From an uncultured Clostridia bacterium (GTDB lineage Bacteria > Bacillota > Clostridia > Christensenellales > Borkfalkiaceae): a stretch of DNA of 27,916 nt. The translations under genes were made by a program, and so were the position numbers. Location: contig CAKQQY010000024.1 of assembly GCA_934271245.1 (NCBI GenBank), forward strand, positions 1 to 27,916. Direction: 5' to 3'. Below the pieces are notes generated by a model, which did not search any database, was not told the DNA's origin, and worked only from the letters and a program-made list of their open reading frames with translations. Numbering within the stretch: position 1 is the stretch's first letter; the number at the start of each line of letters is the position of its first letter. Of this stretch, positions 7,993-20,960 are shown in pieces.

Positions 7993-8826
7993 ATGGCTTG
8001 TTATTCTGGCACTCATTCGCATCGTTATGGTACTAATGGTAGTGAAAATAATCCTAACTGCGAGTTTGGTTGTCAAGGTAGTTGTGGTAATGCTTGTTTA
8101 AGCGGATCAGATAATACATCTTGCACAGTTTGTAAAAACGATTGTGAAGCTGGCTGTGGCAATTGTAATACCTTATGTGGCCCTTAGCCCAGTTGCGATA
8201 CACTATGCAGCGGCGGATGCACTGGTGCATGTGAAGCTGGATGTTCAACAGGTTGTTCTGGCGGATGCAGTGGCGATTGTCAAAGTGGATGCTCAGGCTC
8301 TTGTTCTGGTGGCTGTCAAGGGACTTGTATATCTGCTTGTGCTTAGAATTGCGCGGGTGGATGTACTAATAGCTGTGTTGGCACTTGTAATTATGGATGT
8401 TCCAGTGATGAGGTAAATGATTTATATTTAAATCTTCATTTATCACGTATTGCAGAAAGTGATGATATAAATACTATTAAAAAAATTATTTATAGATTAT
8501 TTGAAAATCTTCAAAAAAGCACTATCTCTAATGGTGATGAAAAATATATAAATGAATTTGGAGGAGACGATCCAATAGGCCTTGTAGCTGACTGGGAAGG
8601 CTGGATGGCCGATGGCACAGCTACATTCTCAATGCTGTTGGATAAAACATTTGAAGCTATTATTAATAACTTAAATACTCTTAATAAAGGCCGAGTAGAA
8701 ATTGATCAAAACAAAATGGCACCAATCAAAATTTGGAAAGACTCTATATCTGGTGAACAATTAAATACAGTTGATCGTGATGCGGCGCTTTATTGGATTG
8801 AATGTCTTAAAAAAATATATGAATAG
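7993..8826 (+). CDS. CXXX-repeat (Cys every 4th residue) protein with C-terminal globular domain, module 1 (2 TAG = Gln)
   Basis: Example repeat: CSGGCTGACEAGCSTGCSGGCSGDCQSGCSGSCSGGCQGTC. TAGs at 8185 and 8344. AGGAGG RBS. Starts MAC, as does the paralog. Confidence 0.7.
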
Positions 8827-8845
8827 GTTATGCCAGTAAAATAAT

Positions 8846-9766: not shown

Positions 9767-10601
9767 ATGAAGATGATGAATAACTATTATGATACGTGTA
9801 GCTTGTTGATAAAGGGCAAAGATATAAAAAAAGATGAGCATATTTTAATTTCTTCAATTACTATTGATGAATTAGAAAATATAAAAACATCTGCAAATAA
9901 AGATGCAGATGTAAAATATACAGCTCGTCAGCTCTTGCGTAATATCAATGCAAATCCTGATATTTATTAGGTATTAATTTATAAAGAAAAAATGATTAAG
10001 CCTATTCAACGATTAGATTTATCAATAACTAATGATACAAAAATATTAGCTACGGCATTAGACTTCAATAAACATAATAAAACTCATCCCATTGATAATT
10101 TTATTACTAATGATTTAACTCTTAAATGTATCGCACGATTATTTCTATCTAACGTATCTTCATTAGAAGAAGGGGACCAAGAGCCATACACTGGTTACAT
10201 TGAGAAAACAATCTCGCAAGAAGAATTGATTAAATTTTATAATAATATTGGAGAAAATCAATATAATTTATTAAATGGTCAATATTTAATTCTACGTGAT
10301 GAAGAAGGTAATTTACTTGATGTAAGATGCTGGATGGATGATACACATAGATATCTTAATTCTAAGCCTATTGAATCAAAATGGTTTGGTAAAGTATCTC
10401 CATATAAAGGTGATGTGTATCAAAAATGCGCAATTGATAGCCTTGTAAATAATCAACTTACAGTATTTAGAGGCGGCGCCGGCGTAGGTAAATCCTTGCT
10501 CGGCCTTACTTATTTGTTCTCTCTATTGGAACAAGGTAAAATTGATAAAATTTATATGTTCTGTAATCCAATAGCTACCAGAGATAGTGCGAAGCTTGGC
10601 T
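9767..10601 (+). CDS. phoH: PIN-PhoH (PhoH2/YlaK-like) ATPase, exon 1 (1 TAG = Gln at 9968)
   Basis: N-terminal PIN-like YYDTCSLL...ITIDELENIK. Walker A GGAGVGKS. Ends ...SAKLG at a U, followed by a P1 pairing partner (GGGTCAAG) in the intron. Confidence 0.75.
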
Positions 10602-11901
10602 TAATCCATAGATAAGGGTCAAGTAAAACCTCGTGAATTGCTGGGACCTCCTTAAGATTTATTAACTACAACATAAGGATGAAATAAGCCTAAGTGTGAA
10701 TGTCTGAAAATAATAAATATTGGACAATCAGCAACCAAGCCCTGAATAGGGGAAGGCTCATCGACTATCGAAATCACATAGAAATATGGAAGAGAGTAGA
10801 GTAGGGCATAGCCCGAAGCGCGAGGGATTTAAACTGAAAAATTTTGGACAAAAAGTGAAAAATTATTTTCTCCAATTTTTAATAATAATAGAAAATAATA
10901 AAGGAGAAAATAATTTATGGATCAAGAAATTATTAATAAATATTTATCGGGATATTCAATAAGCAAATTATTATTAGAATATCCTACTTATAATAGAAGA
11001 TAGATTAATAAGTTATTTCGAGAAAATCAAATAACTATTAGAGGCGGAAGAAAAAAACGTGAATGGACAGAACAAGACAAAAAAGAAATCGAGCAAATGA
11101 TTGAAGATGGAGCATTTATAAAAGATATTAGTAAAAAATTTAAATGCAGCAAAGAAACATTAACTATAAAAATGGAAGAGTGGGGCATTAAATTAAAAAC
11201 TAAAAGTCATATAAATAGATGTATTAAACAAGATTATTTTTCAATTATAGACGCTCCTGAAAAAGCATACTGGTTAGGATTTTTATTTACTGATGGAAGT
11301 GTAGGATACATAAGAAATAGCAAACGTATTCGTCTTCAATTACAAGAAAAAGATTTAGAAATATTAGAACAATTCAAGAAAGATTTAAGTATAGAAACTA
11401 AAATTATTTATGATCGACGTCCTAATAGTGTATGTTGTTCTGTTGAATTTATATGTAGTTAGATTTTTGATGATTTAGGAAAATATAATATTATTCCTAA
11501 TAAAACTTATTTAACTTCTCATATTCCGTATGAAAAAATACCTCAAGAGTATTGGCCAGCATTTGCATTGGGCTTATTAGATGGTGATGGAAGCATTTTT
11601 GTAAGTAAAAATTGTAGCACAGATGTATCTATTAATTATACTGCTTATCATGAAAACGAAGTAGAAGATTTTCAAAATTTAATAAATTTTATAGCTAATA
11701 TAAATCATAAAAATAAAAATTTTTATACTTCAGCTTGGCATACTCAATGGAGAGGTCGTCTTCAAGTTTTAAAAATTCTTGATATTTTATACAATAATTG
11801 TCCAAGACATTTACAACGTAAATATGATATATACTTACGTTTAAAAAATAGTTTAAATTAAGATATAGTCAGTTTTATAGTGAAAGCTATAAAGTTTAAC
11901 G
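10602..11901 (+). mobile_element. Group I intron (~1300 nt) carrying a LAGLIDADG homing endonuclease ORF
   Basis: Exon 1 plus exon 2 give the contiguous PhoH motif KLGFYPGD, matching PhoH KLGFLPGD. The 5' exon ends in U paired to G in the IGS (CTTGGCT : GGGTCAAG). A P10-type pairing lies just upstream (GATAAG : TTTATC). The intron ends in G. A ~310 nt structured non-coding core precedes the ORF. Confidence 0.7.
10917..11862 (+). CDS. Double-motif LAGLIDADG homing endonuclease (intron-encoded; 2 TAG = Gln)
   Basis: Motif 1 WLGFLFTDGSV and motif 2 ALGLLDGDGSI. N-terminal HTH-like repeats. AAGGAG RBS. TAGs at 11001 and 11460. Confidence 0.8.
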
Positions 11902-12317
11902 TTTATCCTGGGGACAAGGACCTTAAGCTTCTTGATTCACAAATTGGCAATTTTCTTATAAGTAAATTTGGTGATAGAAATGCTGTTGAAGATTTAATTG
12001 CAGATGGTAAAATAATTCTTGTTCCGACGGCAGATTGCCGCGGTATGGATATTACAAATAATAGTGGAGTATATATTACAGAAGCACAAAATTCTACTAT
12101 CGATCTAATGAAATTAATGGTTCAACGCATTGGTGAAAATACCAAATGCGTAATTGAAGGCGATGATAAAACACAAGTTGATTTAATCTCTTATTCAGGC
12201 AATAATAATGGATTAATGAGATTATCAGAAGTATTTAGAGGACAACCTTATTATGGTGAAGTAACTCTTAAAAATTGTTATCGCTCTGAATTGGCTAAAC
12301 AAGCAGAATTAATGTAA
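11902..12317 (+). CDS. phoH: PIN-PhoH ATPase, exon 2
   Basis: VIEGDDKTQVDL matches PhoH ITGDxTQIDLP. IDLMKLMVQRIGENTK matches PhoH IEQMKMFLTRIGFNSK. C-terminal LKNCYRSELA. Confidence 0.75.
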
Positions 12318-12348
12318 GAGGAGAGGGGAAACCCTCTTCTCTTTTCTA
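12318..12348 (+). terminator. Terminator-like hairpin after phoH
   Basis: GAGGAGAGGG-GAAA-CCCTCTTCTC followed by a T-run. Confidence 0.5.
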
Positions 12349-12374
12349 TATCTTAAGAGGAAGGAGATAAAAAT

Positions 12375-12508
12375 ATGGCTTTTAAAATGAGAACAACTCG
12401 TCCAGAAGCCGGTAATAAATATTATATTACTAAAAATAATGGTGGATACTCTTATGCAATTAAGGGTAATCCAACAGATAAGCAAAATGATGTCTTGAGC
12501 AACTGCGT
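12375..12508 (+). CDS. Endolysin exon 1 (start of CHAP domain, includes the candidate catalytic Cys in SNCVG)
   Basis: AAGGAG RBS. ...LSNCVG resembles the CHAP GQCTW(Y) segment. The frame then hits TAA and 280 nt of non-coding sequence, after which the CHAP domain resumes. Junction is uncertain by a few nt. Confidence 0.6.
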
Positions 12509-12787
12509 GGGGTAAAAATACTATGCCCATAACTCACTATATCGGTTAAAGGGTGGAGACACTTCAGACCGAGGTAAGACTCTTAATTGAGAAACCTTAA
12601 CGACTGCGGGATAATAATAGTAATATTATTATTGAAGTGAGTTCTTCCAATAGGAAGTAATATACAGTCTGAACTATGGCTATAATCTAACTATGAAACC
12701 ATAGAGGTAGGATTAACGTCCTATCCGCCTTATATTTAAGGTCTTAAAGTAACAGAATGACGCATACGGTAGGTTCAATGAAATCGG
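12509..12787 (+). ncRNA. ORF-less group I-like intron (~279 nt) interrupting the endolysin CHAP domain
   Basis: Exon 1 and exon 2 are in the same frame, and the interval length is a multiple of 3. The best junction ends the exon at U and the intron at G, giving ...SNCVGYGYCKYL... No ORF. Contains an element similar to group I R/S motifs (CAGTCTGAACTATGG). Confidence 0.5.
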
Positions 12788-13901
12788 CGGCTATGGATAT
12801 TGTAAATATTTAAGTCCAGTTAATGCAGAACGCTTCCCGCAATATAACAATACTGGTATACCAATGGGTGATACCCCTAAACTTGGCGCGTGTATGGTAT
12901 GGCAGGGCGGACCAACATTACAAAGTGGTGATGGCGTTGGCCATGTGGCTATTGTTGAAAAAGTAATCAGTTCTACAGAAGTAATAACATCTGAAAGCGG
13001 TTGGGGCAGTAAGAACCCCTTCTGGACAGCAACACGCAAAAAAGGAAATGGTAACTGGGGAGCTGGCTCTGGCTATAAATTTCTTGGTTTTATATATAAT
13101 CCAGCAGTAAAGGATGATGATATTGTGAGTGATCAATATGGGTTTGGCGCTACCAATAGTCCATTAATAAATTATACGTAGATTAGCCCAAATCGCACCA
13201 GTCCACGCACTCATGTAATTGATACAGTCACTATACACTGTGTAGTTGGGCAATGTTCTGTTGAAACTCTTGGAAGTATATTTGCGCCAACAAATAAATA
13301 GGCTTCATCTAACTATGGCATTGGCCCAGATGGCCGAATTGGTATGTATGTAGAGGAAAAAGATCGGTCTTGGTGCTCTTCTAATGGAGCTAATGACGAT
13401 AGAGCAATCACTATTGAAGTTGCCAGCGATACTACTTCGCCATATAAAGTAACTGATAAAGCATATAATGCTCTTATTAAATTACTCGCTGATATTTGTT
13501 AGCGTAATAATATTAAATCACTTAAATGGAAAGCTGATAAAAGCTTAATCGGCCATCCAGAAGAACAGAATATGACTGTTCATAGATGGTTTGCGCATAA
13601 AACTTGCCCTGGTGATTACTTATATAATAAGCATTATGAAATTGCTGAAAAAGTAAATGAATTACTTGGTGTAGAGGAGGATGATGATATGACTCAGGAA
13701 AGATTTAATGAAATGATGGATAACTACATGAAAGAGCGCGCTGAATTAGATCCTAGTAAATGGTCTGCGCAGGCAAGAGCTTGGGCTGAAAGTAATGGTC
13801 TAATTAATGGTGATGCTCAAGGACGCACTATGTATAAAAAATATATGACGCGCGAAGAGGTTATCACTGTCTTATATCGTGCTATGAATAAGGGGAATTA
13901 A
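12788..13901 (+). CDS. Endolysin exon 2: rest of CHAP peptidase, Amidase_2 (PGRP-type N-acetylmuramoyl-L-alanine amidase), and C-terminal domain (3 TAG = Gln)
   Basis: CHAP: NAERF...TPKLGACMVWQGG...GHVAIVEKV...SESGWG. Amidase_2: THVIDTVTIHCVVG...GIGPDGRI...NDRAITIEVA...WFAHKTCPG. TAGs at 13179, 13299 and 13500 join three track ORFs. Confidence 0.75.
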
Positions 13902-13902
13902 A

Positions 13903-14355
13903 ATGTATAGTAAGTAGAGAAAACCTAAAAGAGAATATTCTAAAGGCTTACTTATTCAAGAGTCAGTATTGATTTGGATTACAAGCTTATTATATATTGC
14001 CTTAGCATTTTTCTGTATATTGTAGGGCTATACAGGTTCACTACCTTGGATTACTGCTTCAGCCTCATTACCTTGGGCGGCCTATGGTGTTAGCCAAGTA
14101 TTTTATTATAAAAAAAGTATGCTTGAAAATACCAAAGGTGGTATTAAATATGATACAGTAATGAAAGAATTAGAGGATTAGTTAGAGAAATATTTGAATA
14201 TGACATATGGTAACAGTGAGGATTATAATGATTTAATTAAGGAATTAATTAAAAATAATACTTCGTCTTCAACAACTTCTTCTACTAATAATGATACCAA
14301 AATTTTTACAGAAACGCAAATTTCAAATGAATTAAACGTTGATTATGGAATTTGA
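13903..14355 (+). CDS. Putative holin (two predicted TM helices; 3 TAG = Gln, first at codon 5)
   Basis: Hydrophobic segments LIWITSLLYIALAFFCIL and LPWITASASLPWAAYGV, then a polar C-terminal tail. Immediately downstream of the endolysin. Confidence 0.5.
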
Positions 14356-15179: not shown

Positions 15180-16493
15180 ATGCTAAAGAACCAATATGAT
15201 TATATAGATTTTTATTATATGATTTATGGCTTAGATGCCGTTTCAGCTTATCAGACACATTATATTAAAAATATTACATTCCAAGTTACAGAAGATTGTA
15301 ATTTAGGATGTTCTTATTGTTATCAAATTTGTAAATCTAAAAATAAAATGACATTTGATACAGCAAAGAAAATTATTGATTATTTATTTATAGAACGAGA
15401 AAATCCTCAATCAGAATTCTGTGAAGAAAAGACCAAAGGATTTGTATTTGATTTTATAGGCGGAGAACCGTTTCTTGAGATTGATTTAATTGAGCAAATA
15501 TGTGATTATTTTGAAGAAAAGCTTCTTCAATATCCAGATAGTCCATGGATTATAAATCATGCTTATAGTTTTTCTACTAATGGCACATTGTATTTTACTC
15601 CAAAAGTGCAACATTATATTAATAAGTATAGAGAATATTTAAGCATTAGTGTTACTATTGATGGTTGTAAAGAATTACATGATCAATGTAGAGTATTTAA
15701 AGGAACTAATAAAGGTAGTTACGATATAGCTATTCAAGCGGCATTAAATGAGCTACGCAATAATCACAATGGAGCAACTAAAATTACTATGGCTCCAGCT
15801 AATATAAAGTATGTGGCCGATGGTCTTATTAATATGCTATCTCTTGGATTTACTATTATCAATATTAATTGTGTATTTGAAGAAGGATGGCAATTATCAG
15901 ATGCTCAAGAACTATATAATCAAATGAATATTGTTAGTAAATATTTAATTGATAATAATTTAAATAATAAAGTTTATATTGCAATTTTTGATGCTGGTAA
16001 ATATAGACCCATTAGTGAAGATACACTTGCCCATAATTGGTGTGGAGTTTCTAGTAGAACTATGACAGCATTTAATTATAAAGGTGATATGTATCCCTGT
16101 ATTAGATTTATGGAAAGCTCAACTGGTCATAATGTTGAACCATTTATTGTTGGTAATATTGAACATGGATTATGTGGAACTCCAGAAGAAAAAGAAAGAT
16201 ATGAAAAAGTGTCTTCATTGACCATAGAAAGTATGTCTCCTCAAAAATGTATTGATTGTCCTATCGGAGGAGGATGTGCCTGGTGTACTGGTTATTGTTA
16301 TCAACGAGGAGATATTGAGCATAAAACATTATTTATTTGTCAAATGTATAAAGCTCAAGCATTAGCGTGTAAAAAATATTATCATGATATTAAAGATTGG
16401 GAGACCTATGATAAAATAAATATACCTGATGAAATGGCCTTAGAAATTATTTCTCAGGATGAATGGAATAAATTTAATAAGAAGGAGGAATAA
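15180..16493 (+). CDS. Radical SAM/SPASM peptide maturase, CXXX-repeat target family, paralog 2 (no TAG)
   Basis: CNLGCSYCYQ, GGEPFLE, SPASM cluster CIDCPIGGGCAWCTGYCYQ. Paralog of 6695..7957. Confidence 0.9.
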   Translation: MLKNQYDYIDFYYMIYGLDAVSAYQTHYIKNITFQVTEDCNLGCSYCYQICKSKNKMTFDTAKKIIDYLFIERENPQSEFCEEKTKGFVFDFIGGEPFLEIDLIEQICDYFEEKLLQYPDSPWIINHAYSFSTNGTLYFTPKVQHYINKYREYLSISVTIDGCKELHDQCRVFKGTNKGSYDIAIQAALNELRNNHNGATKITMAPANIKYVADGLINMLSLGFTIININCVFEEGWQLSDAQELYNQMNIVSKYLIDNNLNNKVYIAIFDAGKYRPISEDTLAHNWCGVSSRTMTAFNYKGDMYPCIRFMESSTGHNVEPFIVGNIEHGLCGTPEEKERYEKVSSLTIESMSPQKCIDCPIGGGCAWCTGYCYQRGDIEHKTLFICQMYKAQALACKKYYHDIKDWETYDKINIPDEMALEIISQDEWNKFNKKEE

Positions 16494-16495
16494 TT

Positions 16496-17161
16496 ATGGC
16501 TTGTGTTACTGGTGATACTTGTACTGGTACAAGTTATAAAGCTGGTGATTGTTCAGTTGGTGGATGTATTTCATCTTGTTCTGCTTGTAGTAGTGTATGT
16601 GGAAATACTTGCACTGGTGACTGCGAAAATGGTTGTTAGAATACTTGCATAAGAGGATGCGGTAGTTCTTGTGGTGGCTGTGGAAGCAGTTGCTCTGGTG
16701 GCTGTGATGGCACTTGTAGCGGTAGTTGCACTGGTTGTTCAGGCACTTGTAGTGGTTATTGTGGTGATGGATGCTCCGGCAGTTGCGGGAGTAGTTGTTC
16801 TACTAATTGCACTAATACATGCACTGGAACATGTGCGAATGGTTGTAATACAACATTATTCAATTCTGCCTATGCTAATTTAGTATTAAATGATATTATA
16901 TTAGATGAAGATATAACTACAATAGTGGATTGGATTAAACGCGAAGGTAGCTTAAAAGGTGTTGCTATGGCTTCTCCAGAAGTAACAGTTGGAGAATCAG
17001 TTCCAGTCTTATATCAAGCATTTAATTCAATAATGGCTAATTTGCAGGCAATGGGCCAAAGCTTATCTTACACACCTGTTACTGGTAATGATATTAAGAA
17101 AGCATCTGTCCAAGAGTATATAGATAAAGCAAAAGTAATATATGAAACTATGTTACCTTAA
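16496..17161 (+). CDS. CXXX-repeat protein with C-terminal globular domain, module 2 (1 TAG = Gln)
   Basis: CGSSCGGCGSSCSGGCDGTCSGSCTGCSGTCSGYCGDGCSGSCGSSC. TAG at 16637. AAGGAGG RBS. Confidence 0.7.
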
Positions 17162-18605: not shown

Positions 18606-19078
18606 TTATATTTGTCGATGGAGCTTGTAGTCAAAATGGTAAAGCCAATAGCAAAGGCGGATTTGGTGTAGTAGTTTTTGATGATAACAACAGACTGATT
18701 GATGCTTATGGGCATTGGGAAGAGCATACTACAAATAATATTCAAGAATTAAAAGCTGTTTTATATGCAATTTATCATTATGGTAATAAATCTATAGTAC
18801 CTATTGTATATACAGATAGCTCTTATGTTCATCAGGCATTTACAAAATGGATGTATAATTGGGCTAATAACGGATGGCTTAAAAGTGATAAAAAAGAGCC
18901 AGAAAATTTAGAATTAATTCAAACGTATTATTATTTAATTAAAAAAGGATATAGAATTGATTTACGCAAAGTAACAGGGCATTCCGGCGTCAAAGGTAAT
19001 GAATTGGCTGATATGATTGCTACTGGTAAAATTAATCCTAAAGATTTAATCAATAAGGAGGACATGAATGGCCAATAA
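18602..19078 (+). CDS. rnhA: Ribonuclease H (RNase HI-like)
   Basis: DGAC, TNNIQELKA, YTDSSYV, GHSGVKGNELADMIA. ATGA overlap with the upstream gene. Confidence 0.8.
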   Translation: MIIFVDGACSQNGKANSKGGFGVVVFDDNNRLIDAYGHWEEHTTNNIQELKAVLYAIYHYGNKSIVPIVYTDSSYVHQAFTKWMYNWANNGWLKSDKKEPENLELIQTYYYLIKKGYRIDLRKVTGHSGVKGNELADMIATGKINPKDLINKEDMNGQ

Positions 19079-20960
19079 ATTATACACAGAAGATAGTATT
19101 CAATCACTGTCGCCCCTTGAATTTACTCGACTTAGACCAGGTGTATATTGTGGCTCTACTGAATATTCAACTCAATTACTTATTGAAATTGTATCAAATG
19201 CAGTAGATGAATATTGTGCAGGTCATGGAGATACAATTAAAGTTATTACTAATGAAGATCATAGTATTGTGGTAGAGGATAATGGACAAGGTTTTATTCC
19301 AAATGCAATGCGAGAAGATGGCAAGACTATCCTTGAAGCTTCATTTAGTGTATTAAATACTTCTGGCAAATATGATGACAATGGGGTCTATCAAGGAGTA
19401 GCCCTTGGCTTGAATGGTATTGGTAGTAAATTATCCTGTTTTCTTAGCCATTGGTTAAAGGTTACTACATGGCGTGATGGATCTTATGAAGAAATTACAT
19501 TTACAGAAGGTATTCTCTCTAATAGAATAACTGGAAAATGTGAAAAAGACAAGCATGGCACTAAAGTTAATTGGTTACCAAGTGAAGAATTTTTTACTCA
19601 TACTGAAATTAATTTAAATACTATTAAACAATTATTTAAGGTTCTTGTATGCTTATGTCCTGGGTTAAAAATTGTTCTTAATGATGAAGAATATTACTCG
19701 GCCAATGGATTAACTGATTTAGTCAATGATGCTGTTAAGAAAACAGAAATTATTAATAATAGATTAATTATTAAAAAAGATGAAGGAAAAAATAAATTAG
19801 ATTTTGAATTAACTTATACTGATAATTATACTTCTACTATTGTTCCTTATGTAAATACAGGACTTACTGATAGTGGTCCTCATATTACATTAATTAAAAC
19901 TATTCTTACTCGTGAATTAAATAAATTTTTCCGTGAAAAGAAATGGTTAAAAGATAAAGAAGAAAATTTATCAGGTGAAGATTGTCAAGAAGGATTGTAT
20001 CTTGTATTTAATCTTACTACTTCTGGAGTAAGTTATGATGCTCAGACTAAGAGTAGAATTGTAAAATTAGATATGTCACCATTTACTCCTTGGATTACTG
20101 AAGGAATTCGACAATGGCTTGAACTTAATGAGAAATCAATTAAAATTATTGCTGATAAAGCATTAAATGCACGACGCGCCAGAGAAGCTGCACGTAAAGC
20201 CAGAGAAGCCGTCAGACAACCAAAAGAAAAGAAGAAACAATTCTTAAATCTTCCCAGTAAACTTGTTGATTGTTGGAGCAAAGATAGAAGTAAGTGCGAG
20301 CTGTTCGTGGTCGAGGGGGATTCAGCCGCTGGCGGTCTTGTAGAAGCACGAGATGCTGAACATATTGCTATTTTCCCTGTTAGAGGTAAAATTATTTCAA
20401 GTTATAAAAATAGTAGCGAGAAAATTTTTGCTAATCAAGAAGTAGTTAATCTTATTAAAGCTATTGGTTTAGAATTAGATAGTAAAACTAATAAATTGAT
20501 TTATGATGAAAAAAAATTACGTTATGGTAAGATTTTTTTAGCAGCAGACGCTGATCCGGATGGGGCCAGCATCAGAAACCTCTTGATTGAAATGTTCTGG
20601 TGGTTATGCCCTGAATTAATTGAAAATGGGCATTTATATACAACCATGCCACCATTATTTAGAATTACTACTAAGAAAAATCAATACATTTTTATTAAAG
20701 ATGCTATTGAATTAGAAAAATATAAAGAATTGCATAAGGGTGAAAGTTTTTTAATCAACAGAAACAAAGGCCTGGGGGAGCAAGACCCTGATGAATTAGC
20801 AGAAGCCTTATTAAATCCTGAAACAAGAAATATAGCTCAATTAGTGATTGAAGATAAAAAATCAACAGAGAATTTAATTGAAATGTTGCTTGGACCAAGT
20901 GTACCGCCAAGAAGAGCATATCTATTAGCGCATAGTGAGGAGGCAAATGACAATGATTAA
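19068..20960 (+). CDS. Type II DNA topoisomerase, ATPase/TOPRIM subunit (GyrB/ParE / T4 gp39-like)
   Basis: GHKL ATPase motifs (VDEYCAGHG, VEDNGQGFIP, LNGIGSKL), TOPRIM VVEGDSAAG, and DADPDG. AAGGAGG RBS. Confidence 0.9.
   Translation: MANKLYTEDSIQSLSPLEFTRLRPGVYCGSTEYSTQLLIEIVSNAVDEYCAGHGDTIKVITNEDHSIVVEDNGQGFIPNAMREDGKTILEASFSVLNTSGKYDDNGVYQGVALGLNGIGSKLSCFLSHWLKVTTWRDGSYEEITFTEGILSNRITGKCEKDKHGTKVNWLPSEEFFTHTEINLNTIKQLFKVLVCLCPGLKIVLNDEEYYSANGLTDLVNDAVKKTEIINNRLIIKKDEGKNKLDFELTYTDNYTSTIVPYVNTGLTDSGPHITLIKTILTRELNKFFREKKWLKDKEENLSGEDCQEGLYLVFNLTTSGVSYDAQTKSRIVKLDMSPFTPWITEGIRQWLELNEKSIKIIADKALNARRAREAARKAREAVRQPKEKKKQFLNLPSKLVDCWSKDRSKCELFVVEGDSAAGGLVEARDAEHIAIFPVRGKIISSYKNSSEKIFANQEVVNLIKAIGLELDSKTNKLIYDEKKLRYGKIFLAADADPDGASIRNLLIEMFWWLCPELIENGHLYTTMPPLFRITTKKNQYIFIKDAIELEKYKELHKGESFLINRNKGLGEQDPDELAEALLNPETRNIAQLVIEDKKSTENLIEMLLGPSVPPRRAYLLAHSEEANDND

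What the first reader, a model, noticed from the sequence alone, without database searches (positions are those of the whole stretch)
12375..13901. Endolysin CHAP domain interrupted at its catalytic-Cys region by a ~280-nt ORF-less intron
The CHAP domain begins at 12375 (RBS, ...LSNCVG), hits a TAA, and resumes in the same frame ~280 nt later (YGYCKYLSPVNAERF...GHVAIVEKV). The interval length is a multiple of 3 and has no ORF. The best boundaries put U at the 5' exon end and G at the intron end. Introns in lysin genes are known in some Firmicutes phages, but this one adjoins the active-site Cys. The exact junction cannot be fixed by eye; I found no convincing P1 pairing.
Basis: partly seen in the sequence, partly recalled or inferred. 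Interest (0 to 1): 0.55.

Follow-up and report, generated by a model that had tools for sequence, protein, structure and literature searches.

The report
Small self-splicing intron in phage lysin
The cell-wall-degrading enzyme gene of this gut phage is split, three codons after its catalytic cysteine, by a 246-base self-splicing group I intron without a homing-endonuclease gene; this is a known kind of element, from a family that the standard RNA database (Rfam) does not detect.

Summary
The CHAP+Amidase_2 lysin gene (12375..13901) is interrupted by 246 nt at 12514..12759, not about 280 nt. Joining U12513 to A12760 restores the invariant motif LSNCVG-Y-AYGRFNEIG and a 426-aa protein.

Genomes 97.5-99.2% identical to the window lack exactly these 246 nt and encode that same 1281-nt gene. 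The insert folds into a complete group I core: P1 with a U·G wobble at the splice site, a P3/P7 pseudoknot, P4-P6, P7.1, P8, P9-P9.2 and a terminal G. Across 15 distinct relatives, 91.8% of cells are paired against 32-39% in slid controls, and 39 of 59 pairs have compensatory changes.

A covariance model built without the window finds the insert at E = 7e-28. A related phage (L039) has the same intron at the same site with a GIY-YIG-like ORF in the P1 loop. Other family members split tape-measure genes.

Rfam finds nothing here or in nine related loci, so that is a false negative. Group I introns in phage lysin genes are known, so this is a new member of a known kind. Splicing itself is inferred, not shown.

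Also in the window: a second group I intron (LAGLIDADG ORF) in phoH, and TAG read as glutamine.

The parts
12375..12513 (+). Lysin exon 1 (46 codons plus the first base of codon 47): MAFKMRTT...LSNCVG + U. It contains the catalytic Cys44 (TGC, 12504-12506).
   Evidence: ORF list and translation. Alignment to 13 uninterrupted homologues. C44 aligns with the Cys of QCTWYAY in peptidase C51 structure 9eum. Pfam CHAP match begins at residue 42.
12514..12759 (+). Group I intron, 246 nt, no ORF, 35% G+C. It begins with the AA of an in-frame TAA and ends in G12759 (omega-G).
   Evidence: It is absent, exactly, from 7 intron-less alleles and from genomes 97.5-99.2% identical to the window. The MFE fold has z = -3.7. 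A covariance model built without this sequence matches 12530-12671 at 134.9 bits, E = 7e-28. There are no terminal inverted repeats and no target-site duplication.
12510..12528 (+). P1: exon GGGU (12510-12513) plus A12514 pairs with the internal guide sequence UGCCC (12524-12528). U12513·G12525 is the splice-site wobble pair. The loop is 12515-12523.
   Evidence: Present in the MFE fold. In relatives the guide sequence changes together with the exon: GGGU/GCCC, AGGU/GCCU, GAGAU/GUCUC, AGGGU/GCCCU (sequences, read by eye). In L039 the loop holds an ORF.
12531..12643 (+). P3: AACUCACU (12531-12538) pairs with AGUGAGUU (12636-12643). P3 encloses P4-P6, the 5' strand of P7, and P7.1.
   Evidence: 8-bp perfect inverted repeat (I6). 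5 of 8 pairs have compensatory changes across 15 sequences (helix 1).
12542..12596 (+). P4-P6 domain. P4 is 12542-12547/12567-12572. J4/5 is AAA (12548-12550). P5 is 12551-12555/12560-12564 with a GNRA loop (GAGA). P6 is 12573-12575/12594-12596 with a small P6a (12580-12582/12589-12591).
   Evidence: Compensatory changes in P4 (3 of 6 pairs), P5 (4 of 5) and P6 (2 of 3). In many relatives the P6 loop holds an ORF of 0.2-1.3 kb.
12598..12669 (+). J6/7 is UAAC (12598-12601). P7 is GACUG (12602-12606) paired with CAGUC (12665-12669), forming a pseudoknot with P3. J8/7 is UAAUAUA (12658-12664). This is the proposed guanosine-binding core.
   Evidence: Invariant in all 15 sequences, but P7 was part of the search pattern, so it gives no covariation test. 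The same strings in the same strand order occur in the T4 td intron (UAAC-GACUAUC ... GAUAUAGUCUG), whose sequence was verified as 100% T4.
12611..12632 (+). P7.1 hairpin between P7 and the 3' strand of P3: AUAAUAAUA / UAUUAUUAU with a GUAA (GNRA) loop.
   Evidence: Perfect 9-bp inverted repeat (I4). 6 of 9 pairs are compensatory and 99.3% of cells are paired (helix 6).
12644..12657 (+). P8 hairpin: CUUCC AAUA GGAAG.
   Evidence: All 5 pairs show compensatory changes despite imperfect MAFFT alignment (helix 7). L039 has CUUUC...GAAAG.
12674..12741 (+). 3' peripheral hairpins. P9 is 12674-12679/12699-12704. P9.1 is 12706-12712/12719-12725, with loop UUAACG. P9.2 is 12728-12732/12737-12741.
   Evidence: Compensatory changes in P9 (5 of 5 pairs) and P9.1 (5 of 7). 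P9.2 is supported only by eye (window CCUUA/UAAGG against TR-TP1 CCUAUA/UAUAGG), because MAFFT misaligns it.
12760..13901 (+). Lysin exon 2: (Y)AYGRFNEIGG..., the rest of CHAP (His108 in GHVAIVEKV), Amidase_2, and a C-terminal region. The stop is TAA at 13899-13901.
   Evidence: Pfam on the spliced product: CHAP at residues 42-126 (2e-11) and Amidase_2 at 199-332 (1e-20). The spliced gene has the same length (1281 nt) as the uninterrupted gene of near-identical genomes.
13179..13181 (+). In-frame TAG, codon 187 of the spliced gene. Two more lie at 13299-13301 (codon 227) and 13500-13502 (codon 294). All three are read as sense, most likely Gln.
   Evidence: The same three TAG codons are in the intron-less allele L061. 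TAG aligns with Q in 3 of 3 positions of a paralogue pair and with Q in most PhoH positions. TAG is in-frame in many + strand ORFs across the window.

Best explanation
The 246 nt at 12514..12759 are an ORF-less group I intron of the phage IA (T4 td-like) type, inserted in codon 47 (phase 1) of a CHAP + Amidase_2 endolysin gene, three codons after the catalytic Cys44.

Proposed mechanism, inferred from the class rather than shown here. In the pre-mRNA the guide sequence UGCCC (12524-12528) pairs with the exon end GGGU-A to form P1, with U12513·G12525 marking the 5' splice site. The P3-P8 and P4-P6 domains fold around the P3/P7 pseudoknot. An exogenous guanosine bound in P7 attacks after U12513. 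The terminal G12759 then occupies the same site, and the freed 3'-OH of U12513 attacks after G12759. This joins U|AC into codon UAC (Tyr47) and yields mRNA for a 426-aa lysin. Unspliced RNA stops at once at the TAA formed by U12513 and A12514-A12515, giving a 46-aa peptide with no His or Amidase_2 parts. Active lysin therefore needs both splicing and read-through of three TAG codons as Gln.

Origin. The intron belongs to a mobile family common in gut Bacillota phages. A relative (L039) has it at the same lysin site with a GIY-YIG-like ORF in the P1 loop, and nearly identical genomes lack it. This is the presence/absence pattern expected from homing, with the window's copy being a form without the endonuclease gene.
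For: Shown by tools:
1. Joining 12513 to 12760 recreates NCVGYAYGRFNEI, which is invariant in 13 uninterrupted homologues of 47-87% identity. The spliced DNA is colinear, with no indel, with 7 intron-less alleles.
2. Contigs 97.5-99.2% identical over up to 9.3 kb lack exactly 246 nt. Their lysin is 1281 nt (426 aa), equal to the predicted spliced gene.
3. The exons are under purifying selection: 29 synonymous against 4 non-synonymous codon differences from the intron-less allele.
4. The group I secondary-structure model, tested on 15 distinct family members, has 91.8% of cells paired against 31.7-38.8% for slid partners. 39 of 59 pairs have changes on both sides (slid controls: 12-19). 169 cells have double changes (slid: 23-48). 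No shuffle out of 500 reaches any measure.
5. A covariance model of P3 to P7', built from 13 members without the window or L039, matches 12530-12671 at 134.9 bits, E = 7e-28, over its full length with no non-standard pair. It is the only significant hit in the window.
6. P1 with a U·G wobble is in the MFE fold, z = -3.7.
7. L039 has the same site and the same core, plus an ORF with the VYI...YIG motif (GIY-YIG 21.7 bits, E = 2.6e-4) in the P1 loop. The four synonymous bases nearest the junction are shared by the two intron-bearing alleles and differ in all intron-less ones.
8. Removing other family members restores long open frames in tape-measure genes, including Thomasclavelia phage TR-TP1, where an HNH ORF sits in the P6 loop.
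9. J6/7-P7 and J8/7-P7' strings are shared with the T4 td intron in the same strand order.

From the literature: group I introns, including endonuclease-less deletion derivatives, are frequent in S. thermophilus phage lysin genes (PMC3952083, citing Foley et al. 2000). A putative 349-bp ORF-less group I intron splits a CHAP tail hydrolase in Staphylococcus phage DW2 (PMC4124061).
Against: - There is no match to Rfam Intron_gpI or any other Rfam family at the gathering threshold, or at E <= 10 on 12350-12900. This is weakened because nine loci holding other family members also give nothing.
- There are no RNA data, so splicing is inferred.
- P7, the catalytic helix, is invariant in my sample because it was part of the search pattern, so it has no covariation support.
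- P10, P9.0 and the G-binding pair were not established.
- The core lacks P2 and has one hairpin (P7.1) where td has P7.1 and P7.2, so subgroup placement is uncertain.
- The GIY-YIG call for the L039 ORF is just below Pfam's cut-off (21.7 against 22.6 bits).
- No second ORF-less copy with these exact flanks was found in IMG/VR.
Confidence: 0.9

Rival explanations
1. The insert is a dead insertion, either a decayed intron or another mobile element. On this view the lysin gene of this phage is a pseudogene, or only a truncated product is made.
For: No Rfam hit. There is no endonuclease gene, so nothing maintains mobility. The first 300 nt of the gene are more diverged from near-identical genomes than the rest (20 of 34 differences).
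Against: Every modelled core pair is a standard pair in the window's copy. P1, the U·G wobble and the terminal G are intact. Both exons are in frame and full length, with 29 synonymous against 4 non-synonymous differences and no frameshift. There are no transposon-type terminal repeats or target duplication. No other lysin was seen in the window (ORF survey; not exhaustive).
Confidence: 0.04
2. These are two separate genes: a 46-aa peptide (12375..12515), and a CHAP-like protein without the catalytic Cys that starts at an internal site after 12753.
For: A standard gene caller would output exactly this. The exon-2 frame is open from 12753.
Against: There is no ATG/GTG/TTG with an RBS near 12753-12790; the first listed start in that frame is ATG 12864. 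The 46-aa peptide is the exact N-terminus, including the catalytic Cys, of a domain that is uninterrupted in about 1900 homologues and in near-identical genomes. The sequence between the two parts is a conserved structured RNA.
Confidence: 0.02
3. This is programmed translational bypassing, as in T4 gene 60: the ribosome takes off at GGG-UAA and lands 246 nt downstream.
For: A Gly codon immediately followed by a stop codon at the take-off position resembles gene 60 (from established knowledge of that system).
Against: The restored Tyr47 codon UAC is assembled from U12513 plus A12760-C12761, which only RNA joining can produce. No matching GGG/GGN landing codon precedes GCA at 12762 (sequence). 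The gap is five times the gene 60 gap. The interval is a covarying group I fold.
Confidence: 0.01
4. This is an assembly artefact: a chimeric contig that placed an intron-like repeat inside the lysin gene.
For: Most close relatives in public assemblies lack the insert. No second ORF-less copy with these exact flanks exists in IMG/VR.
Against: An independent contig (L039) has the same core at exactly the same site, with the same junction-flanking synonymous bases. The insertion is exact to the base and splice-competent, which a chimera would not produce.
Confidence: 0.01

Closest known systems
Phage T4 td intron (group I, subgroup IA2; self-splicing, carries I-TevI)
   Same: The strand order is the same: P3, P4-P6, J6/7, P7, extra hairpin(s), P3', P8, J8/7, P7', then P9 hairpins. 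Core strings are shared: UAAC-GACU (J6/7-P7) and AUAUA(C)AGUCUG (J8/7-P7'). A 3' hairpin has the loop AUUAACG, and the intron ends ...AAUG. The 5' exon ends GGGU. The td sequence was verified as 100% T4. The related L039 copy has a GIY-YIG-type ORF, the same endonuclease class as I-TevI.
   Different: There is no P2. There is one hairpin (P7.1) where td has P7.1 and P7.2. Total length is 246 nt with no ORF, whereas td has its ORF in P6. The host gene is a lysin rather than thymidylate synthase. No BLAST-level similarity was found.
Group I introns in the lysin genes of Streptococcus thermophilus phages, including endonuclease-less deletion derivatives (Foley et al. 2000, as cited in PMC3952083)
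   Same: A group I intron interrupts a phage lysin gene. Presence is polymorphic among close relatives. Forms with and without a homing-endonuclease ORF both exist. Deviations cluster in the exon sequence flanking the insertion site (PMC3952083; here).
   Different: The phage lineage and host are different, the lysin architecture and insertion site are different, and here the gene also contains recoded TAG codons. Sequence relatedness was not tested here.
Putative 349-bp ORF-less group I intron in the CHAP tail hydrolase gene of Staphylococcus phage DW2 (PMC4124061)
   Same: A small ORF-less insert splits a CHAP-domain peptidoglycan hydrolase gene, with an in-frame stop a few bases into the insert. 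It was recognised by comparison with an uninterrupted homologue.
   Different: The DW2 gene is a virion-associated tail hydrolase, not the endolysin. The DW2 insert resembles Twort nrdE and phage 812 introns. No structure or covariation analysis was reported there. Relatedness to the present family was not tested.
Unannotated intron in the tape-measure gene of Thomasclavelia phages TR-TP1 and TR-TP2 (PQ571309, PQ571310)
   Same: It belongs to the same intron family. The 5' 68 nt are 75% identical and the 3' half is homologous with compensatory changes. Its removal joins ...EEG|VGWTWQ... in frame.
   Different: It sits in a tape-measure gene and carries a 1.25-kb HNH endonuclease ORF in the P6 loop. 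The GenBank record annotates the pieces as three separate CDS.

Membership tests
Group I intron | The 5' exon ends in U, which forms a U·G wobble with an internal guide sequence (P1). | tested here: met
   GGGU-A pairs with U-GCCC, with U12513·G12525, in the MFE fold. In relatives the guide changes together with the exon: AGGU/GCCU, GAGAU/GUCUC, AGGGU/GCCCU (read by eye).
Group I intron | The last intron nucleotide is G (omega-G). | tested here: met
   G12759 precedes exon 2. The junction is fixed independently by protein and DNA alignment. Relatives end ...ACAG(A/C)(A/U)UG.
Group I intron | A conserved core of P3-P8 and P4-P6 domains, with P3 and P7 forming a pseudoknot. | tested here: met
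   Covariation on 15 sequences: 91.8% of cells paired against 32-39% in slid controls. P3, P4, P5, P6, P8, P9 and P9.1 each have compensatory pairs. P7 (GACUG/CAGUC) crosses P3 as required, but it is invariant through ascertainment.
Group I intron | A guanosine-binding site in P7, with conserved J6/7 and J8/7. | tested here: inconclusive
   The UAAC-GACUG and UAAUAUA-CAGUC strings match the T4 td R/S-type elements. The G-binding pair itself cannot be assigned without experiment or a 3D model.
Group I intron | A match to the curated covariance model (Rfam RF00028 Intron_gpI). | tested here: not met
   No hit at the gathering threshold or at E <= 10. Nine loci with other family members also give no hit, so I judge this a sensitivity failure of the model. 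GISSD subgroup models were not available.
Group I intron | Precise excision restores the host reading frame at a conserved site. | tested here: met
   The lysin is restored. Tape-measure genes of five other members are also restored.
Group I intron | GTP-dependent self-splicing. | not testable with these tools
   This needs in vitro transcription with GTP, or RT-PCR/RNA-seq.
Mobile (homing) group I intron | An intron-encoded homing endonuclease and presence/absence polymorphism with co-converted flanks. | tested here: inconclusive
   The window copy has no ORF. L039 has a GIY-YIG-like ORF in the P1 loop (just under Pfam's cut-off), and others carry HNH ORFs in P6. Near-identical genomes lack the intron. 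Divergence is raised in the first 300 nt of the gene, and junction-flanking bases are shared with L039. This fits past homing; the window copy cannot home by itself.
Subgroup IA2 (td/Twort type) | Two extra hairpins, P7.1 and P7.2, between P7 and P3', and usually a P2. | tested here: not met
   There is only one hairpin (P7.1, 12611-12632) between P7 and P3', and no P2 (3 nt, 12528-12531 exclusive, separate the guide from P3). The intron is IA-like in strand order, but I do not file it as IA2.
CHAP (peptidase C51) + Amidase_2 endolysin | A Cys-His catalytic pair in CHAP, plus an N-acetylmuramoyl-L-alanine amidase domain. | tested here: met
   Pfam CHAP 2e-11 and Amidase_2 1e-20 on the spliced product. 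C44 and H108 align with QCTW.../GHVAFVE of solved structure 9eum. Both residues are invariant in alignment A1.
Translational bypass (T4 gene 60 type) | Matched take-off and landing codons, with decoding resuming at a codon boundary. | tested here: not met
   There is no matching landing codon, and Tyr47 (UAC) must be built across the junction from U + AC (sequence).

The most novel reading that the evidence does not exclude
The intron may be more than a selfish passenger and may act as one half of a double gate on lysis timing. Active lysin would need both RNA splicing, without which translation stops at the TAA created at the 5' splice site, three codons after the catalytic Cys, and the late-infection switch that reads three TAG codons as Gln. 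The neighbouring phoH gene is split by a second intron. A weaker form of this reading is that the family is a distinct IA-like subclass (no P2, a single P7.1), invisible to Rfam, that preferentially occupies tape-measure and lysin genes of gut Bacillota phages.
Probability: 0.1. Interest if true: 0.6.

Novelty: new member of a known kind. Interest (0 to 1): 0.35.

Why it matters
Biologically this is an ordinary kind of element. [quoted passage not shown]

Its practical value is for annotation. Rfam does not detect this intron family, so gene callers split lysin and tape-measure genes into fragments. The GenBank record of Thomasclavelia phage TR-TP1 is an example. My two-part pattern alone found 43 IMG/VR contigs and 9 MAG contigs, so the number of mis-annotated genes is probably large.

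For anyone wanting to express this CHAP-amidase lysin, the correct 426-aa sequence requires removing 12514..12759 and reading TAG as Gln.

The locus also gives a clean natural comparison: intron-plus, intron-minus and endonuclease-plus alleles in near-identical genomes. That would suit a study of homing and co-conversion in uncultured, stop-codon-recoded gut phages.

Tried and rejected
- **Rfam.** Rfam on the whole window at gathering, on 12350-12900 at E <= 10, and on nine related loci gave no group I hit. The two weak hits (SraG, DABA-DC-AT) are chance.
- **Sequence searches with the insert.** blastn of the 246 nt against GenBank phages found only a 68-nt, 75% match in TR-TP1/TP2. That match turned out to be the key lead. 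An exact 25-mer from P4'-P6 found nothing in IMG/VR.
- **First splice attempt.** One search used 12516 as the exon end, an off-by-three error that produced a stop. It was corrected.
- **Early helix assignments.** I first took UCAGAC(12564-12569)/GUCUGA as P3 and GCGG/CCGC as P7. I dropped these because TR-TP1 does not conserve them and because comparison with td identified GACUG/CAGUC as P7. A P3 register error was fixed.
- **P0043.** I guessed it was an exon-2-only gene call from an intron-bearing relative. It is in fact an N-terminal fragment of an uninterrupted gene.
- **P9.2.** MAFFT misaligns this hairpin, so it has no count-based support.
- It used a wrong gap range (200-230 nt; the true spacing is 235 nt) and is void. 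The repeat, with a positive control on the window, found no other ORF-less copy with identical flanks in IMG/VR.
- **Spliced junction as DNA.** The exact spliced-junction 23-mer is absent from the JGI metagenome contigs.
- **Other element types.** I rejected a group II intron (too short, no domain V-like element sought or seen), an intein (the insert is full of stops), and an IS/MITE (no terminal inverted repeats or target duplication).
Full report
**1. What is in the sequence**

An ORF with a good RBS (GAAGGAG, 12360-12366) starts at ATG 12375, encodes MAFKMRTT...LSNCVG, and meets TAA at 12513-12515. The same frame is open again from 12753 and reads QNDAYGRFNEIGGYGYCKY... through CHAP and amidase sequence to TAA at 13899-13901. 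It crosses three TAG codons on the way, at 13179, 13299 and 13500.

**2. Where the junction is**

Joining U12513 to A12760 gives ...NCVG-Y-AYGRFNEIGG.... A search with the spliced N-terminal 186 aa found about 1900 homologues, many covering 100% of it at 70-84% identity. In an alignment with 13 of them, N43 C44 V45 G46 Y47 A48 G50 R51 F52 N53 E54 I55 G56 are invariant and no gap is needed.

At DNA level, seven intron-less alleles (L001-L007) align up to window 12514 and resume at 12762, while staying contiguous in their own coordinates.

The strongest evidence comes from contigs that carry a 437-aa radical-SAM protein identical to the window's (Hadza and other gut metagenomes, L061-L066). They are 97.5-99.2% identical to the window over up to 9.3 kb. 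Their lysin is called as one 426-aa gene of 1281 nt, which is exactly the predicted spliced gene, and the distance from lysin to the next genes is shorter by exactly 246 nt.

The insert is therefore 12514..12759, 246 nt. Because A12514 = A12760, shifting the junction by one base gives the same product, but only 12513|12760 leaves U at -1 and G at the 3' end.

**3. The host gene**

The spliced product has CHAP (residues 42-126, 2e-11) and Amidase_2 (199-332, 1e-20). NCVGYAYGR aligns with QCTWYAYNR, and GHVAIVEKV with GHVAFVEKV, of a solved peptidase C51 domain (9eum).

Against the intron-less allele of the near-identical genomes there are 29 synonymous and 4 non-synonymous codon differences, with no frameshift and the same three TAG codons. 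The gene is under purifying selection, so the insert must be removed before translation.

**4. The insert is a structured RNA of the group I type**

Rfam gives no hit on the window or on 12350-12900 at E <= 10. The MFE fold of 12500-12775 (z = -3.7, no shuffle as stable) already contains a P1 in which exon GGGU-A pairs with U-GCCC (12524-12528), with a U·G wobble at the splice site.

A weak blastn hit of the first 68 nt to Thomasclavelia phages TR-TP1 and TR-TP2 fell exactly at the annotated end of a tape-measure CDS. An HNH endonuclease ORF follows, and then a 'hypothetical protein'. The flanks of that HNH ORF are homologous to the two halves of the window insert, with compensatory differences in several stems.

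Two conserved strings, UAAC-GACUG and AAUAUA-CAGUC, correspond to J6/7-P7 and J8/7-P7' of the T4 td intron. I checked that my td sequence is 100% T4.

This gives the following model, in window coordinates:
- P1: 12510-12514 / 12524-12528
- P3: 12531-12538 / 12636-12643
- P4: 12542-12547 / 12567-12572
- P5: 12551-12555 / 12560-12564 (GAGA loop)
- P6: 12573-12575 / 12594-12596
- J6/7: 12598-12601
- P7: 12602-12606 / 12665-12669
- P7.1: 12611-12619 / 12624-12632 (GUAA loop)
- P8: 12644-12648 / 12653-12657
- J8/7: 12658-12664
- P9: 12674-12679 / 12699-12704
- P9.1: 12706-12712 / 12719-12725
- P9.2: 12728-12732 / 12737-12741
- omega-G: 12759

There is no P2.

**5. Test of the model on relatives**

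The pattern GACTGCRGGATA-N(35-65)-ATATACAGTC found 43 IMG/VR contigs and 9 contigs of mostly Lachnospiraceae, Clostridium and Faecalimonas MAGs. These hold 25 distinct 3' halves. Some members are ORF-less, and many have 0.2-1.3 kb inserted between the P6 strands.

I aligned 15 distinct members with the P6 ORFs cut out (A2) and counted my model on that alignment:

| Measure | Model | Slid controls |
|---|---|---|
| Cells forming a standard pair | 91.8% | 31.7-38.8% |
| Pairs with changes on both sides (of 59) | 39 | 12-19 |
| Cells with double changes | 169 | 23-48 |
| Covariation score | 0.538 | 0.06-0.11 |

None of 500 shuffles reached any observed measure. P3, P4, P5, P6, P7.1, P8, P9 and P9.1 each contain compensatory pairs. 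P7 is invariant, but it was part of the search pattern, so this says nothing either way. P9.2 is misaligned by MAFFT.

A covariance model of P3 to P7' built from 13 members, without the window and L039, hits window 12530-12671 at 134.9 bits, E = 7e-28. The match is full length, every modelled pair is a standard pair, and nothing else in the window is significant.

Rfam also finds nothing in nine loci holding other members. The Rfam negative is therefore a property of the library, not evidence against an intron.

**6. Mobility**

L039, a 107-kb IMG/VR contig, has the same gene order: phoH with a LAGLIDADG insert, then the lysin. It has the same lysin exon 1 ending ...LSNCVG-TAA, the same core, and the same 3' exon (ACGCATACGG..., AYGRFNEI). 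Between the 5' splice site and the guide sequence GUGCCC it carries an ORF with a VYI-x10-YIG motif and a NUMOD-like C-terminus. Pfam GIY-YIG scores 21.7 bits, E = 2.6e-4, just under the 22.6 cut-off.

The four synonymous bases nearest the junction (GTG GGG T|AC GCA TAC) are shared by the window and L039. They differ in every intron-less allele (GTA GGC TAT GCA TAT, or GTA GGT TAT GCC TAT). The GGT/GGC to GGG change is what allows the GGGU/GCCC P1.

Of the 34 differences from the near-identical intron-less gene, 20 lie in the first 300 nt (6.7%). The rest of the gene differs by 1.4%, and the flanking genome by about 0.8%. This is the pattern expected from co-conversion during homing, and I offer it as an inference. 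The same has been described for lysin introns of S. thermophilus phages (PMC3952083).

Removing other family members restores frames that are open across the full ±150-aa windows examined. These are mostly tape-measure genes, split at a conserved ...KFNEVG|NNYAIS... site or at ...EG|(V/I)GW....

**7. Rivals**

- *Transposon-type insertion.* There are no terminal inverted repeats and no target duplication.
- *Two separate genes.* There is no start site for the second part, and the first part is the N-terminus of a domain that is uninterrupted everywhere else.
- *Translational bypassing.* It cannot assemble the UAC codon from U + AC across the junction.
- *Pseudogene.* The intact core and the synonymous-dominated divergence argue against it.
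- *Assembly artefact.* L039 argues against it.

**8. Comparison with what is known, and verdict**

The insert works like a phage IA-type group I intron and meets every defining feature that can be tested in silico, except recognition by Rfam's model. It is not a clean IA2 member, because it has no P2 and only a single P7.1.

Group I introns in phage lysin genes, endonuclease-less derivatives, and a putative ORF-less intron in a CHAP hydrolase gene are all in the literature (PMC3952083; PMC4124061). Intron endonucleases have also been noted in stop-codon-recoded gut phages (bioRxiv 10.1101/2021.08.26.457843). Surveys that depend on Rfam/GISSD models acknowledge that they can only find introns resembling known ones (PMC11878797).

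I therefore rate this a new member of a known kind, with moderate-to-low interest. Its main value is practical: correct lysin and tape-measure annotation in gut phages, and a covariance model for a family that Rfam misses. Splicing itself remains inferred.

**9. Context noticed on the way**

- TAG is a sense codon in this window. It is in-frame in many + strand ORFs.
- TAG aligns with Q in 3 of 3 positions of a radical-SAM paralogue pair, and with Q in most positions of the PhoH comparison, H in two.
- No tRNA gene lies in the window.
- phoH is split by a second, unrelated group I intron of about 1300 nt carrying a LAGLIDADG ORF.

Noticed in passing
window 10602-11901: A second group I intron, about 1300 nt, splits the PIN+PhoH gene (exon 1 from ATG 9767 to 10601, exon 2 11902-12317) at the motif SAKLG-F|YPG. 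Its P1 pairs exon CUUGGCU with GGUCAAG (about 10616-10622), with a U·G wobble. It has an R-like element CAUCGACUAUCG near 10760. A LAGLIDADG ORF (10914-11861, containing 2 TAG codons) ends right before the S element AAGAUAUAGUC (about 11860-11870). The intron ends ...AACG at 11901. The spliced PhoH matches the Pfam PhoH profile at positions 8-199 of 205. L001 has the uninterrupted gene. The lysin-intron covariance model does not hit this intron, and neither does Rfam.
   Followed up: partly
window, + strand ORFs between about 6400 and 27900; lysin TAGs at 13179, 13299, 13500: TAG is used as a sense codon, most likely Gln (genetic code 15). Treating TAG as sense adds about 3.9 kb of open frame on the + strand. 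All 3 TAGs of the radical-SAM gene at 6692-7990 align with Q in its paralogue at 15180-16493, and TAG aligns with Q in most PhoH positions. Some genes, such as 15180-16493 and 19068-20960, have no TAG. No suppressor tRNA or any other tRNA lies in the window.
   Followed up: partly
window 6692-7990 with 7969-8844, and 15180-16493 with 16481-17161: There are two paralogous radical-SAM-like genes (42% identical; weak Pfam Radical_SAM and Fer4_12 hits). Each is followed by a small protein. The first (7969-8844) is extremely Cys/Gly-rich, with CxxxC-type repeats such as GCSGGCSGDCQSGCSGSCSGGC. The counterpart of the second in L061 has a faint Pfam hit to tSAM_targ_Cxxx_rpt. This looks like two phage-encoded maturase-substrate pairs.
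   Followed up: no
L008 (PQ571309.1, Thomasclavelia phage TR-TP1), locus coordinates 2491-4021: The GenBank annotation gives 'tail length tape measure protein', 'HNH endonuclease' and 'hypothetical protein' as three CDS. They are really one tape-measure gene split by a member of this intron family with the HNH ORF in P6. Splicing joins ...VYEEG|VGWTWQANPED... in frame. TR-TP2 (PQ571310) has the same arrangement.
   Followed up: partly
L039 (IMGVR_UViG_3300012662_000013), reverse strand, about 7525-8760: This is the same lysin intron at the same site, with a roughly 230-codon GIY-YIG-like ORF (VYI...YIG motif, NUMOD-like C-terminus, contains TAG codons) placed in the P1 loop. The ORF's last codons overlap the guide sequence GUGCCC. 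An endonuclease ORF in L1 is an unusual position, since most family members carry theirs in P6.
   Followed up: partly
L009-L051 (IMG/VR) and L052-L060 (MAGs): The intron family defined here is common. It occurs in 43 viral contigs of 5-190 kb and in 9 MAG contigs (Lachnospiraceae, Clostridium, Faecalimonas, one Rikenellaceae bin). Most copies sit in tape-measure genes at ...KFNEVG|NNYAIS.... None is recognised by Rfam 15.
   Followed up: partly
window 12316-12345: A strong terminator-like hairpin (AAGAGGAGAGGG-GAAA-CCCTCTTCTCTT followed by a T-rich tail) lies between the phoH stop (12315-12317) and the lysin RBS. This suggests the lysin is not simply co-transcribed with phoH.
   Followed up: no
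window 13903-14355: The 150-aa ORF immediately after the lysin overlaps its stop region, has 3 in-frame TAG codons and two or three hydrophobic segments (LIWITSLLYIALAFFCIL..., LPWITASASLPWAAYGVSQVFYY), and has no Pfam hit. It is a candidate holin.
   Followed up: no
window 12375-12675 compared with L061 1442-1741: The first 300 nt of the lysin gene are 6.7% diverged from otherwise 99%-identical genomes, whereas the rest of the gene is 1.4% diverged. In this tract the window often differs from both the intron-less allele and L039, so the donor of the tract, if it was gene conversion, is not in the data.
   Followed up: partly
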